Shown here: piece by piece, positions 3,001 to 6,000 of the stretch
How the letters are laid out: the number at the start of each line of letters is the position of its first letter
Numbering within the stretch: position 1 is the first letter of the stretch
From: Fimbriosthenelais zetlandica
Taxonomy: Eukaryota
Length of the DNA: 64,000 nt
Direction: 5' to 3'
Assembly (NCBI GenBank): GCA_977030845.1
Contig: OZ365111.1
Coordinates: 9,796,001 to 9,860,000, forward strand
Program-made: the position numbers

Positions 3001-6000
3001 TAAAGACAAAGTAAAAGTGTGGCTACAAAGTTGCTAGATAAACTTACGCAGGAAAATAAAAATACGCATGATCAAAAAAATTCTCATTATACATAATATA
3101 CAAGATCAGTAAAATTCAAATTGTAAGCGGAAAACCCTTTGGAACGTGCCACCTATATTGAGGGACGCAAATGTTCCAAGCTTGTGACAATTAGTACCTA
3201 CCCAAGATGCTAGGTTAGTAAGCCCAAGTTAAGATCAGAGAGACCATTGCAAGTGAGACCTCCATGACTGGAAGTAGATAGAGTGAGACCCCTTGTGTTT
3301 CTGTGTCAGAAGATTCTACTCACCCCACAAATGATGCACATGATTAATATCACCAAGGTGACTGAAATATCCAGCGACTGGCTCATTTCCCGCCCGGCGA
3401 AATTTTATACCCCGGGCCCTAAAGATTCAATCACAATTTGCGATCTTTTTTGAATATTACTTCAATACATTCTTTACACAAAGGACCTCTGTGTAAGGCA
3501 AATCAACATGCAATGAATATACCTAGTCAGAAAAAAATACTACGAGGAAAAACACACTAGAAATCTGTTGAGAGAAAGGGAAATAAATTAGACAATGAAC
3601 AATATAACTTCATTCCACTTCATCTTTTTACACTGCACTGGAATTTCCTTTAAAAAATAGTATTTTTTTAATTCGATAATTTTGTATCGCATGTTGAACA
3701 TATATATGTACATGTATGTTGAACATATTAATATATGCCATGATTACGGGGAAAACTTTACATCTTCAAATTATCCGATGAAGTTAGAATTAAATTTGTT
3801 CATTGCCTGAAAACACTAAAGTGGAAATAATTAAAAGTGTGAAGCTTGAATGTTATTGAAGAATAAATCTTTCTATCAGAAAGTGTAATCAAGGAAAGTA
3901 ATTACCCGTATATAGAGCAAGAAATTTGTTAGTAGCACTTAACACGGACTTGAATTGAATGGAGATTGAGAGAAGAAAGGTTTTACATTAAGTTTATGAT
4001 TAATAACTGTATTCATCTAAATAAGGATGTATGAAGCAATTTAGAAATCAGTAAAAACACATCTCCTTTCAAATCAAATCCTATGAATTTGCAGGCGAGT
4101 ATTACTCAAATATTTCTGTAAATTTCGCCATTAAAAAAAACATACATCCACAAAAGGCAAGCTATACAAGACCAGAGAAAACAACACAAAGATCAAGGAT
4201 GCAAGGCTGATTAGTCAAATAACTAAAAATATCCTGAAAATTTCAAAGTTTAATTTATATTGAGCATTTCCGATAGATTCATATCCTCGGATACTTTAAA
4301 TTATTATTTCTTGTATATTGGGACATTTATCTTTCCTGATTCAACGGAATTGCATGAAATCCGGAAATTTGCTGAAAAATTGCATCCCCGTAAGAGTGTT
4401 TTCCAAGTAAAAACAAGAGAAAAAAGCCAGAAAATCAATGAGGAAACAGTCATAAATTGCTCATGCTGCTGGTGATTACTGGTATAGGCTCAGGGCCAAC
4501 TAGGCGGGAGGACCCATTGTGTGACTATGACCAATAGGCTGGACCCATGACACCAGTCATTAGACTTACCCCAGAAATGATGGACATTGTATAAATCGCC
4601 AATATGGGAGAAATAACCAGCAACTGCCTCGTCGGATTCTCGCCTATTTGAAATTCCTCGTGCCCTATAGAAATGTGTTGGCGATAGTAGATATTGTAAT
4701 AAAAATAGATTAATAGAAATCTTACAGGCTCTTTCTTAAAGTTGAAACAAATATTATATATCAGGAGAACATTTTAAAACTAACATTCTAATTTCCTCAT
4801 AGTACGATGTCACCTACAACATAATATATACATCTGAAGAAAAAGAGCGCTTACCGGACCCAATGGGAAAAAATCTTTAAATAGCAGATAAAATTTTCAA
4901 TCTGAACAGAAAAATATTCAAATGTACAATCATTTTAAAAAGGGCAAAATTTAATCTTAGCCAAAAATATAATAAATTCATCGAGTTCTTAGCTTTAAAT
5001 ATTTTATAATCTTTCAAATTCGGTTCGAAAACCAAAAATGATTTACATTGTGATAGAAGGTTACTTAAACCTAGACTTGTATTTATCATGTACTTATTTA
5101 TTAGCAGGAATAAACACTGTTCTTACTACAACTATTTCAACTTACCAGTTGTTACCCCATTCAATCATCGTTCCTGGCTGTCAATCAAAAAGGAAACAAA
5201 CTACATTAAATTTTTAATACCAAGGAAAATCTATTTAGTGTCAGTAGACACAATATCAGGTCTTTCTAGATCACTCTCTTCCTATCTAAATCGCAAGAAA
5301 AAATAATTGTAATTTTTTTAGAATTGGAATTAAAAATTTAGAGGAAACATTTTTAGCAAGGAAATACCATGTTGACTAAATCATAATAATTGTTGAAAGG
5401 TTATAACCATGGAATTACTTACTTTGAGGACATAGCTTCTGAGTTCGTAGATACTGGATCCCGCTCTAGGTTGAATATCACCCCAGAAAGTGAAGGCGAG
5501 GAGGATCTGGTTCTTGCGCGACCGTAGCATTTTATTTCGATTGATGCGAAAATCAACAAACTCCTGAAATAACAACAAAATTTGGTGAATTGCCTAACAA
5601 AATCGCCTCCCTACATTACATACATTATACACAAAATAAGGCCGATAATACAAAAAAATTGATTTCTTTTATTCATCAAAATTATTTTATGTCTTTCTTC
5701 AAGGATAGAAATTCTCAAAGGAATCAATAAATGAAAAGATTCAGAAAGTGAGGAATTCAGGATCGCTGGCGCTTACTTTATCTGTCCGGTAAACCTGAGT
5801 TGCGGTATTAAGAGATGCATAGCCACCAGGGTATTTCCAGAGATGTACTAGAAAAATAACATAATATTACTAAAGTACATTTTATCAGTGTTCAGATTCT
5901 GGATATTTGGACGTACCAATGTATGTTCATTTAAGTAGAAATAAATATATCAAAATATATAAATAACACATTACGATCAATAGACACAAATCTACTGATC

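What the first reader, a model, noticed from the sequence alone, without database searches (positions are those of the whole stretch)
3324..4664. NIPSNAP has a tandemly duplicated, obligately mutually exclusive exon pair
Exons 8a and 8b are both 95 nt with identical phases and intact splice sites, and share 20 of 31 amino acids. Including both or skipping both shifts the frame, so only one can be used per productive mRNA. Both copies stay open despite substantial divergence, which suggests selection. They lie ~1.15 kb apart, so steric exclusion is unlikely and NMD or RNA pairing is more plausible (inference). This would let a single gene make two NIPSNAP C-terminal domain variants (SNRRESDEA vs KFRRAGNEP), a diversification that vertebrates achieve with paralogs.
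Basis: partly seen in the sequence, partly recalled or inferred. Interest (0 to 1): 0.65.

Follow-up and report, generated by a model that had tools for sequence, protein, structure and literature searches.

The report
Mutually exclusive exon pair in NipSnap
An invertebrate NipSnap (mitochondrial protein) gene carries two old tandem copies of one 95-base exon, only one of which can be used per working mRNA, and molluscs have the same arrangement annotated as paired isoforms.

Summary
A complete 10-position NipSnap gene lies on the minus strand (ATG 7548, stop 2497). Exon 8 is present twice: 8a at 4664-4570 and 8b at 3418-3324. Both copies are 95 nt, have the same phase and AG/GT sites, and lie 1151 nt apart. 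They share 20/31 residues and 61/95 bases. Both match the same Pfam NIPSNAP positions (22-53), so only one fits the domain. Using both gives a stop at the 4th codon of 8b; using neither gives a stop at the 2nd codon of exon 9.

Silent sites are saturated (pS 0.79) while pN is 0.24, so both copies have been kept by selection.

In 23 of 23 mollusc isoform pairs examined, all differences fall in this exact segment. Five mollusc gene models hold both copies in tandem. So this is a real, old mutually exclusive exon pair, here in a spiralian lineage whose phylum I could not resolve.

Steric hindrance, U12 incompatibility and a distant branch point do not fit. Intron pairing is not above chance. Frame control plus regulated splice-site choice is the best reading.

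No RNA data were available. I found no paper describing it. Interest is moderate: a new member of a known kind.

The parts
7463..7548 (-). NipSnap coding exon 1 (ATG at 7548; MAATLAGLGRRGLLSLSRNNPQLINNAA; donor AAG|gtaagg)
   Evidence: read; translated
6652..6803 (-). exon 2
6328..6373 (-). exon 3
6035..6126 (-). exon 4
5777..5847 (-). exon 5
5423..5563 (-). exon 6 (141 nt; query)
5146..5177 (-). exon 7, constitutive, ends with 2 bases of the Trp codon (..PGTMIEWGNN-W)
4665..5145 (-). intron 7 (481 nt), GT-AG
   Evidence: no pairing above chance with the other introns
4570..4664 (-). exon 8a, 95 nt, upstream alternative copy (ancestral-like states)
3419..4569 (-). intron between the two copies, 1151 nt, GT-AG; last AG before the 8b acceptor about 27 nt upstream
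3324..3418 (-). exon 8b, 95 nt, downstream alternative copy (resembles mollusc downstream 'beta' copy)
2874..3323 (-). intron 9 (450 nt), GT-AG
2790..2873 (-). exon 9 (84 nt), constitutive; Pfam NIPSNAP positions 55-80
2497..2561 (-). exon 10, last coding exon, TAA at 2499-2497

Best explanation
The window holds one NipSnap gene of a spiralian (lophotrochozoan) animal in which exon 8 exists as two old tandem copies used as mutually exclusive alternatives.

Each mRNA that keeps the frame carries 8a or 8b. This gives two proteins that differ at 11 of 31 residues in the C-terminal NIPSNAP (ferredoxin-like) domain. The segment covers the end of helix alpha1, the following loop and the beta2-beta3 hairpin.

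Shown: the anatomy, the frame rule, purifying selection on both copies, and homology to a segment that is swapped between annotated isoforms across molluscs.

Inferred: the choice is made by competition between two ordinary U2-type splice-site pairs under trans-acting regulators. mRNAs with both exons or neither carry an early stop and are removed by nonsense-mediated decay or give a truncated, useless protein.

On origin, the downstream copy 8b looks like the downstream 'beta' copy of molluscs. I therefore lean (about 55%) towards one duplication older than the split between this lineage and molluscs, but this is unresolved.
For: Anatomy and frames.

Same Pfam positions 22-53 for both copies, with the next exon at 55-80 and the last at 80-102.

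Only two copies, and a complete gene otherwise.

Selection:
- Sd 16.5 of S 20.8 and Nd 17.5 of N 72.2.
- Differences by codon position are 11/5/18.
- 12 of 20 identical residues use different codons.
- Flanking introns are unrelated (19/60 and 18/60 identical).

Mollusc comparison:
- 23 of 23 isoform pairs (gastropods, bivalves, a chiton, octopuses) differ only inside this segment (sources).
- Five models hold both copies in the order alpha then beta: Batillaria, Nucella, Elysia crispata, Tegillarca and a C. gigas UniRef model.
- The beta copies of gastropods and bivalves form one clade of 14 rows, support 92/87.

At the 11 sites where 8a and 8b differ (8a-like:8b-like):
- Nucella copy 2 is 1:7, P0014 2:7, Batillaria copy 2 2:6.
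- P0009 is 7:0, Schistocerca 6:1, Centruroides 5:0.

An unnamed contig ORF (P0004, and its near-copy P0226) holds two tandem copies in another organism.

Structure: the AlphaFold model of Haliotis rubra X1 with 82 named sequences has pLDDT 74.3. The segment (residues 210-240) spans the end of helix 202-219, strand 223-230 and strand 235-242. The fold matches NIPSNAP-family structures 1vqy and 5kak (TM 0.77 and 0.75; sequence match).
Against: - No transcript data for this species, so use of both copies is inferred, not seen.
- In annelid-like relatives I found no single species with both forms.
- The tree of 31 columns does not place the window's copies. The AU test does not reject 8a and 8b as sisters (lnL 5.09 lower, p 0.37). 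8b with the mollusc beta clade is only 1.19 lnL better than the free tree (p 0.54).
- The similarity of 8b to beta copies could be retained ancestral states.
- A pairwise pN/pS cannot exclude that one copy went silent recently.
- NMD as the enforcing step is textbook inference, not tested.
Confidence: 0.8

Rival explanations
1. One of the two copies (most likely 8b, the less ancestral-looking one) is a relic that is no longer spliced in; the gene makes one protein.
For: There is no expression evidence for this species. An open frame of 31 codons is weak evidence by itself: random placement of the 34 changes left the frame open in 28% of trials. The named annelid models (Capitella P0049, Dimorphilus P0021) show one form only.
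Against: - pN 0.24 against a saturated pS of 0.79. At least 20/31 identity was kept in 0 of 20000 neutral trials.
- Both splice-site pairs are intact, with GTAAGT and GTGAGT donors.
- 8b alone scores above the Pfam gathering cut-off (24.0 vs 22.3), better than 8a (20.3).
- An 8b-like exon (26/31) sits in a spliced protein of another species, P0014.
- The homologous pair is alternatively used in annotation in 23 of 23 mollusc pairs.
Confidence: 0.07
2. Exclusivity is enforced mainly by competing RNA base-pairing (docking site and selector sequences) in the flanking introns, as in Dscam, 14-3-3 zeta or ATE1, rather than by frame control.
For: The site 5045-5058 in intron 7 is complementary to two places upstream of 8b: 3871-3884 (14 nt, 86%) and 3426-3437 (12 nt, 92%) (I16 and I19). 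Tandem exon duplication is proposed to create such structures (abstract of PMC6071210).
Against: The best inter-intron helices are not better than dinucleotide shuffles. Shuffles reached the observed score in 108 of 200 (intron 7 x 8), 65 of 200 (8 x 9) and 13 of 200 (7 x 9). The I16/I19 arms are short and AU-rich and score below those best helices. Conservation could not be tested because no related eukaryotic genome DNA was available.
Confidence: 0.13
3. The window's pair arose by its own duplication in this lineage, independent of the mollusc pair. NipSnap exons duplicate repeatedly, and the likeness of 8b to mollusc beta copies is shared ancestral states or convergence.
For: - The tree does not resolve the window copies, and 8a+8b as sisters is not rejected (p 0.37).
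- The two copies of P0004 are sisters (96/84).
- Other phyla have alternative homologous segments at other exons of the same gene: Tubulanus, Lineus (two events), Lingula and three Penaeus species. So duplication recurs.
- Independent origins of such exons in helminths, annelids and molluscs are described for mrp-1 (passage of PMC7434440).
Against: - Same exon, same order (ancestral-like copy upstream, beta-like copy downstream) as in 5 of 5 mollusc models that hold both.
- 8b is 7:1 to 6:2 like mollusc beta copies at the discriminating sites.
- Silent sites are saturated and the flanks unrelated, so the duplication is old.
Confidence: 0.42

Closest known systems
Mollusc 'protein NipSnap-like isoform X1/X2' pairs in RefSeq/GenBank (e.g. 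Haliotis rubra XP_046550104/XP_046550105, Mytilus californianus XP_052074739/XP_052074740, Octopus bimaculoides XP_014779773/XP_014779774)
   Same: Same gene and same 31-residue segment right after ..EWGNNW. The flanks are identical and the two forms are homologous. Where both copies are in one model, the order is alpha then beta.
   Different: Those are automatic annotations in molluscs. The window comes from another spiralian lineage, about 62-70% identical to molluscs in the other exons. Some mollusc copies differ in length by 1-3 codons (Babylonia, Octopus, Argopecten). The mollusc alpha signature (SQMG..HHIW) is not seen in 8a.
coq-2 exons 6a/6e (rhodoquinone switch) and mrp-1 in helminths, annelids and molluscs
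   Same: Equal-length homologous mutually exclusive exons in a gene for a mitochondrial function, found in annelids and molluscs (passages of PMC7434440).
   Different: For coq-2 the functional meaning (substrate choice) is shown. For NipSnap nothing is known about what the two forms do. I did not test whether nematodes or flatworms have the NipSnap pair.
Oyster alternative oxidase duplicated-exon isoforms (CvAOXA/B)
   Same: A mollusc mitochondrial protein diversified by alternative use of a duplicated exon (title and start of the abstract of PMC5589949, seen in the listings).
   Different: A different gene. I saw only the listing, not the text.
Vertebrate paralogues NIPSNAP1 and NIPSNAP2
   Same: Two closely related proteins of the same family. 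Both are named as mitophagy factors in the titles and abstracts listed. That they are whole-gene paralogues is recalled, not tested.
   Different: They are whole-gene duplicates, not an exon pair. No test here shows that 8a/8b correspond to the 1/2 split.
Docking/selector (Dscam, 14-3-3 zeta, ATE1), steric-hindrance, U2/U12 and distant-branch-point (OGDH) classes of mutually exclusive splicing
   Same: The outcome is one exon of a tandem homologous set per mRNA.
   Different: - Intron 1151 nt, not short.
- All introns GT-AG with GTRAGT donors.
- An AG lies about 27 nt before the 8b acceptor, so no long AG-free zone.
- No pairing above chance.

The OGDH mechanism is known to me only from the abstract start of PMC7969005.

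Membership tests
NIPSNAP family (Pfam PF07978), animal NipSnap1/2 type | Sequence match to the NIPSNAP domain profile | tested here: met
   Exon by exon:
- 8b: 24.0 bits (cut-off 22.3).
- 8a: 20.3 bits.
- Exon 9: 21.3 bits.
- Last exon: 15.6 bits.
The four cover profile positions 22-102 in order. Single exons are too short to pass the cut-off except 8b.
NIPSNAP family (Pfam PF07978), animal NipSnap1/2 type | Full-length collinearity with animal NipSnap proteins | tested here: met
   tblastn of four homologues places 10 exon positions in order on the minus strand. Per-exon identity is 158/221 (71%) to the Capitella-like P0010 and 155/221 to Aplysia. Exons were never joined.
NIPSNAP family (Pfam PF07978), animal NipSnap1/2 type | Two ferredoxin-like (dimeric alpha+beta barrel) domains | tested here: inconclusive
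   Shown for the homologue Haliotis rubra X1 only (model pLDDT 74.3; 1vqy TM 0.77, 5kak TM 0.75, two-domain 2pgc TM 0.75). The window's own protein was not folded because that needs the joined model.
Tandem-duplicated mutually exclusive exons | Neighbouring exons of equal length and phase with intact splice sites | tested here: met
   95 nt each, ag|G ... G|gtragt, adjacent in the gene.
Tandem-duplicated mutually exclusive exons | The exons are homologous to each other | tested here: met
   20/31 residues and 61/95 bases identical. Both match the same Pfam positions.
Tandem-duplicated mutually exclusive exons | Including both or neither destroys the reading frame | tested here: met
   PGV* and L*.
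Tandem-duplicated mutually exclusive exons | Exactly one of the exons is present in mature mRNAs, and both are used | not testable with these tools
   No RNA data for this species. Indirect support only: 23 of 23 mollusc isoform pairs swap this segment, and 8a-like and 8b-like exons occur in spliced proteins of other species.
Docking/selector RNA-structure class | Competing intronic base-pairings stronger than chance and conserved | tested here: inconclusive
   Not above shuffles: 108/200, 65/200 and 13/200 shuffles reach the observed score. Conservation could not be tested.
Steric-hindrance class | Intron between the copies too short to splice | tested here: not met
   The intron is 1151 nt. 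The unnamed P0004 ORF implies about 67 nt between its copies, but that is another organism.
U2/U12 incompatibility class | One flanking intron with U12-type sites | tested here: not met
   The donors are gtaagt, gtaagt and gtgagt, and all acceptors are ag. The U12 consensus I compared them with is recalled.

The most novel reading that the evidence does not exclude
The exon-8 pair dates to before the split of molluscs from this spiralian lineage (Cambrian or older) and has been kept as a two-isoform switch ever since.

More broadly, NipSnap is a recurrent hotspot. Different protostome phyla have independently duplicated different exons of this one gene into alternative pairs: exon 8 in molluscs and here, and other exons in nemerteans, a brachiopod and shrimps. 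These do at exon level what vertebrates did with NIPSNAP1/2.

The switch may belong with coq-2, mrp-1 and AOX to a set of mitochondrial genes retuned by exon choice in animals that live through low oxygen.
Probability: 0.3. Interest if true: 0.65.

Novelty: new member of a known kind. Interest (0 to 1): 0.45.

Why it matters
NipSnap proteins are conserved mitochondrial proteins linked to mitophagy in mammals (listing). What distinguishes family members is poorly understood.

A conserved, selected two-form switch confined to 31 residues points to one small surface of the C-terminal domain where function is tuned: the helix end, a loop and a hairpin. It also gives a natural pair of variants to compare.

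The pair also matters for annotation. At least five public mollusc gene models wrongly include both copies, and one annelid model stops right after the exon.

The pattern of different exons of the same gene being doubled in different phyla is a tidy case for studying exon duplication versus gene duplication.

Tried and rejected
- the 31-aa exon is under the 40-aa minimum of the search for homologous proteins.
- the 8a-containing frame found only one longer protein (P0004).
- The 8b frame (36 aa) is under the same limit, so 8b was never run through the word-index search.
- the RNA duplex script timed out with no output.
- duplexfold on whole introns gives meaningless full-length duplexes, so I replaced it with an ungapped helix scan against 200 dinucleotide shuffles. 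That scan found nothing above chance.
- the first AlphaFold model (16 sequences) was poor (pLDDT 50.7, under 50 over the segment) and was replaced.
- a tree of 56 exon copies on 31 columns and three AU tests did not settle shared versus independent duplication (p 0.54, 0.37, 0.42).
- the exon profile against 1.84 billion representatives gave 226 hits at E up to 0.001, mostly short unnamed single-exon ORFs. Of the 150 listed, 3 had two or more stretches. I fetched 16. They added only a near-copy of P0004 (P0226) and one odd in-frame double (P0228).
- Distant-branch-point idea: rejected, because an AG lies about 27 nt upstream of the 8b acceptor.
- Assembly artefact or haplotype duplicate: rejected, because the copies are only 64% identical with unrelated flanks.
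- Literature:
  - 'nipsnap' with 'exon duplication': 0 papers.
  - 'nipsnap' with 'mutually exclusive exon': 3 papers, all three checked and all mammalian gene lists.
  - 'nipsnap' with 'mutually exclusive': 30 papers, 20 listed, none on this by title.
  - None of the papers listed contain 'nipsnap'.
- Genome contigs was not used because it holds only bacteria and archaea.
- Complex prediction and the ESM Atlas were not used, as nothing here called for them.
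Full report
**What is there**

The gene lies on the minus strand. Reading, and placing four homologous proteins with tblastn, gives a complete NipSnap gene:

| Exon | Coordinates | Note |
|---|---|---|
| 1 | 7548-7463 | ATG at 7548 |
| 2 | 6803-6652 | |
| 3 | 6373-6328 | |
| 4 | 6126-6035 | |
| 5 | 5847-5777 | |
| 6 | 5563-5423 | |
| 7 | 5177-5146 | |
| 8a | 4664-4570 | |
| 8b | 3418-3324 | |
| 9 | 2873-2790 | |
| 10 | 2561-2497 | TAA at 2499-2497 |

All introns are GT-AG. 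Exon 8 is the only exon present twice, and there is no third copy. The window has no N. It is not human: the other exons are 62-71% identical to annelid and mollusc NipSnap proteins.

**Check of the observation**

- Both copies are 95 nt. Each starts with the last base of a Trp codon and ends with the first base of the next codon.
- The sites are ctatag|G...G|gtaagt for 8a and ctttag|G...G|gtgagt for 8b.
- The peptides share 20 of 31 residues, and the DNA shares 61 of 95 bases.
- The repeat finder picked the pair up independently as a 72-nt direct repeat, 74% identical, with spacing 1246.
- The intron between the copies is 1151 nt.
- Each copy alone matches Pfam NIPSNAP at profile positions 22-53 (E 6e-4 and 5e-5). 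Exon 9 continues at 55-80 and exon 10 at 80-102. The domain therefore has room for one copy only.
- With both copies in, 8b is read as PGV-stop. With neither, exon 9 is read as L-stop.

**Are both copies kept by selection?**

- By Nei-Gojobori counting, 16.5 of 20.8 silent sites differ (pS 0.79, saturated). Only 17.5 of 72.2 replacement sites differ (pN 0.24).
- Differences by codon position are 11, 5 and 18. Twelve of the 20 shared residues use different codons.
- The 60 bases on either side are unrelated (19/60 and 18/60 identical).
- When the 34 differences were placed at random on 8a, the frame stayed open in 28% of 20000 trials. At least 20/31 residues were kept in none.

So the duplication is old, and protein sequence has been conserved in both copies for most of that time. 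A pairwise comparison cannot exclude recent silencing of one copy.

**Relatives**

I searched exon by exon.

The frame holding 8a found one longer protein, P0004. It is an unnamed 206-aa read-through ORF from a 790-base contig. It holds two tandem copies of the same exon with splice-site-like edges about 67 bases apart.

The frame holding exon 6 found 21 spiralian NipSnap proteins, the best 79-83% identical. A profile of these found 976 proteins at E up to 1e-20, of which 120 were listed.

Cluster look-ups gave named isoform pairs, and I compared 31 of them.

- In 23 of 23 mollusc pairs, every difference lies inside the segment homologous to exon 8, with 10 to 24 differences and identical flanks. 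The taxa are:
  - Haliotis (3 pairs), Babylonia, Littorina, Pomacea, Aplysia, Physella and Biomphalaria;
  - Liolophura;
  - Octopus (2 pairs);
  - Mytilus (4 pairs), Argopecten, Pecten, Saccostrea (2 pairs), Ostrea, Crassostrea and Sinanodonta.
- One of the 23, a C. gigas UniRef model, is really a hybrid holding the first copy plus the tail of the second.
- Four further mollusc models contain both copies in a row: Batillaria, Nucella, Elysia crispata and Tegillarca, the last partial.
- In all five models with both copies, the 'alpha' form comes first and the 'beta' form second.
- In 8 of 8 non-mollusc pairs, none of the differences are in exon 8.
  - Seven of these swap a homologous stretch elsewhere in the protein: Tubulanus columns 95-125; Lineus columns 150-185 and the last 18 residues; Lingula columns 33-84; three Penaeus species columns 231-276.
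  - One, Cryptotermes, is a one-residue indel.

**How old, and shared with molluscs?**

A tree of 56 exon copies on 31 columns groups the beta copies of gastropods and bivalves (14 rows, support 92/87). It leaves the window's copies unplaced. The two copies of P0004 are sisters (96/84).

AU tests are indecisive:

| Constraint | lnL against the free tree | p |
|---|---|---|
| 8b with the beta clade | 1.19 better | 0.54 |
| 8a and 8b as sisters | 5.09 worse | 0.37 |

I also counted 8a-like against 8b-like states at the 11 sites where 8a and 8b differ:

| Sequence | 8a-like : 8b-like |
|---|---|
| Schistocerca (single-copy arthropod) | 6:1 |
| Centruroides (single-copy arthropod) | 5:0 |
| Capitella | 6:3 |
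| P0009 | 7:0 |
| Nucella copy 2 | 1:7 |
| Batillaria copy 2 | 2:6 |
| Haliotis X2 | 3:6 |
| P0014 | 2:7 |

P0009 and P0014 are spliced proteins of other, unnamed species. In the other exons they are only 66% and 64% identical to the window. Yet they are 25/31 identical to 8a and 26/31 to 8b respectively.

The order of an ancestral-like copy upstream and a beta-like copy downstream matches the mollusc models. I lean towards one old duplication, but repeated origin remains a live rival.

The window's phylum is unresolved. The best per-exon totals are a Capitella-like sequence at 71%, an unnamed protein at 70%, Aplysia at 70% and Capitella at 69%.

**How exclusivity is kept**

- Steric hindrance is out, because the intron is 1151 nt.
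- The donors are gtaagt, gtaagt and gtgagt, so all are U2-type and there is no spliceosome incompatibility (the U12 consensus is recalled).
- An AG about 27 bases before the 8b acceptor argues against a distant branch point near the 8a donor (the mechanism is known to me from the abstract start of PMC7969005).
- For RNA pairing I scored the best antiparallel helices between the three introns against 200 dinucleotide shuffles each. Shuffles reached the observed score in 108, 65 and 13 of 200. The short arms that share site 5045-5058 (I16 and I19) score lower still.
- Nothing here supports a docking/selector system.

What remains is frame control. Both wrong products carry a stop two (both exons in) or one (both out) exon junctions upstream of the last exon, which is the usual trigger for nonsense-mediated decay. 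That is established knowledge, inferred here. The choice between two ordinary site pairs would be set by regulators.

**What the segment is in the protein**

I folded a named homologue, Haliotis rubra X1, not the window's protein.

- With 82 named sequences the model reached pLDDT 74.3 and pTM 0.70.
- The segment (residues 210-240) covers the last half of helix 202-219, a short loop, strand 223-230, a turn and most of strand 235-242.
- The model matches NIPSNAP-family structures 1vqy (TM 0.77) and 5kak (TM 0.75), and two-domain ferredoxin-like proteins such as 2pgc. The sequence match to 5kak has E 9e-11.
- Mapped by position, the window's 11 differences fall on the helix end (4), the loop (2), the end of the first strand (1), the hairpin turn (3) and the second strand (1).

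What the two forms do differently is unknown.

**What is known**

I found no paper on this.

- 'nipsnap' with 'exon duplication' gave 0 papers.
- 'nipsnap' with 'mutually exclusive exon' gave 3 papers. I checked the passages of all three, and they are gene lists from mammalian studies.
- 'nipsnap' with 'mutually exclusive' gave 30 papers, 20 listed, none on the topic by title.
- Supplementary tables are closed, so published exon catalogues may still list it.
- The phenomenon is already visible in automatic RefSeq annotation of molluscs.
- Close parallels are the coq-2 and mrp-1 exon pairs of helminths, annelids and molluscs (passages of PMC7434440) and the oyster alternative oxidase (listing only).

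**Verdict**

This is a real and old mutually exclusive exon pair. The case is a new member of a known kind and is of moderate interest. The added observation is that different phyla have doubled different exons of this same gene.

**Unchecked**

- Transcripts of this species.
- Intron conservation.
- dN/dS across species.
- Presence of the pair in named annelid genomes.
- A word-index search with 8b.

Noticed in passing
P0004 and P0226 (unnamed ORFs from other contigs; not in the window): Read-through ORFs that hold two tandem copies of the exon-8 homologue. The edges look like splice sites (..R|ARG.. and ..HHFWG|K), and the copies are only about 67 bases apart. They group as sisters (96/84). 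In that organism the short spacing could itself prevent joining the two copies.
   Followed up: partly
P0228 (unnamed 127-aa representative): Two nearly identical copies of the exon-8 segment lie directly adjacent and in frame inside an otherwise spliced-looking NipSnap C-terminus. This would not be possible with 95-nt exons. It is either a 93-nt exon pair both included, or an assembly artefact.
   Followed up: no
Named isoform pairs of Tubulanus polymorphus, Lineus longissimus, Lingula anatina, Penaeus japonicus/vannamei/chinensis: The same gene has alternative homologous segments at other positions: alignment columns 95-125; 150-185 and the last 18 residues; 33-84; 231-276. NipSnap therefore seems prone to exon-level duplicates in several protostome phyla.
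   Followed up: partly
Public gene models P0017 (Batillaria), P0052 (Nucella), P0059 (Elysia crispata), P0075 (Tegillarca), P0198 (C. gigas UniRef), P0005 (Paralvinella): Five mollusc models include both exon copies in one protein, joined by short junk linkers. The Paralvinella model stops right after the exon with 'GE', as if read into the intron. These look like annotation errors caused by the duplicate.
   Followed up: partly
P0208 (Littorina saxatilis X3) and P0192 (Mytilus trossulus X3): Third predicted isoforms lose the frame or end just after the exon-8 region. They may be the non-productive splice products.
   Followed up: no
window 59237-60514 (+): An uninterrupted 426-codon frame matches UDP-galactopyranose mutase (GLF, E 1.5e-67, plus an NAD-binding domain). 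An intronless gene of this kind in an animal contig is unusual. It could be of horizontal origin or an invertebrate-type glf.
   Followed up: partly
window 19351-20901 (+) and 41223-41558 (+): There is a large open exon with an ANF-receptor ligand-binding region (E 6e-39). A later piece matches the end of the 7tm_3 domain (E 7e-9). Together these suggest a class-C GPCR gene spread over about 22 kb.
   Followed up: partly
window 34498-35637 (-): An intact 380-codon frame carries a helix-turn-helix and an integrase core domain (rva_4, E 1e-66). It is a transposon-type integrase sitting between the GPCR pieces.
   Followed up: partly
window 50075-50398 (-) and 30487-30872: A piece matches the endonuclease/exonuclease/phosphatase family 2 (E 4.5e-9). 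Separately, there is a short region whose frames on both strands repeat the same peptide units (a tandem repeat).
   Followed up: no
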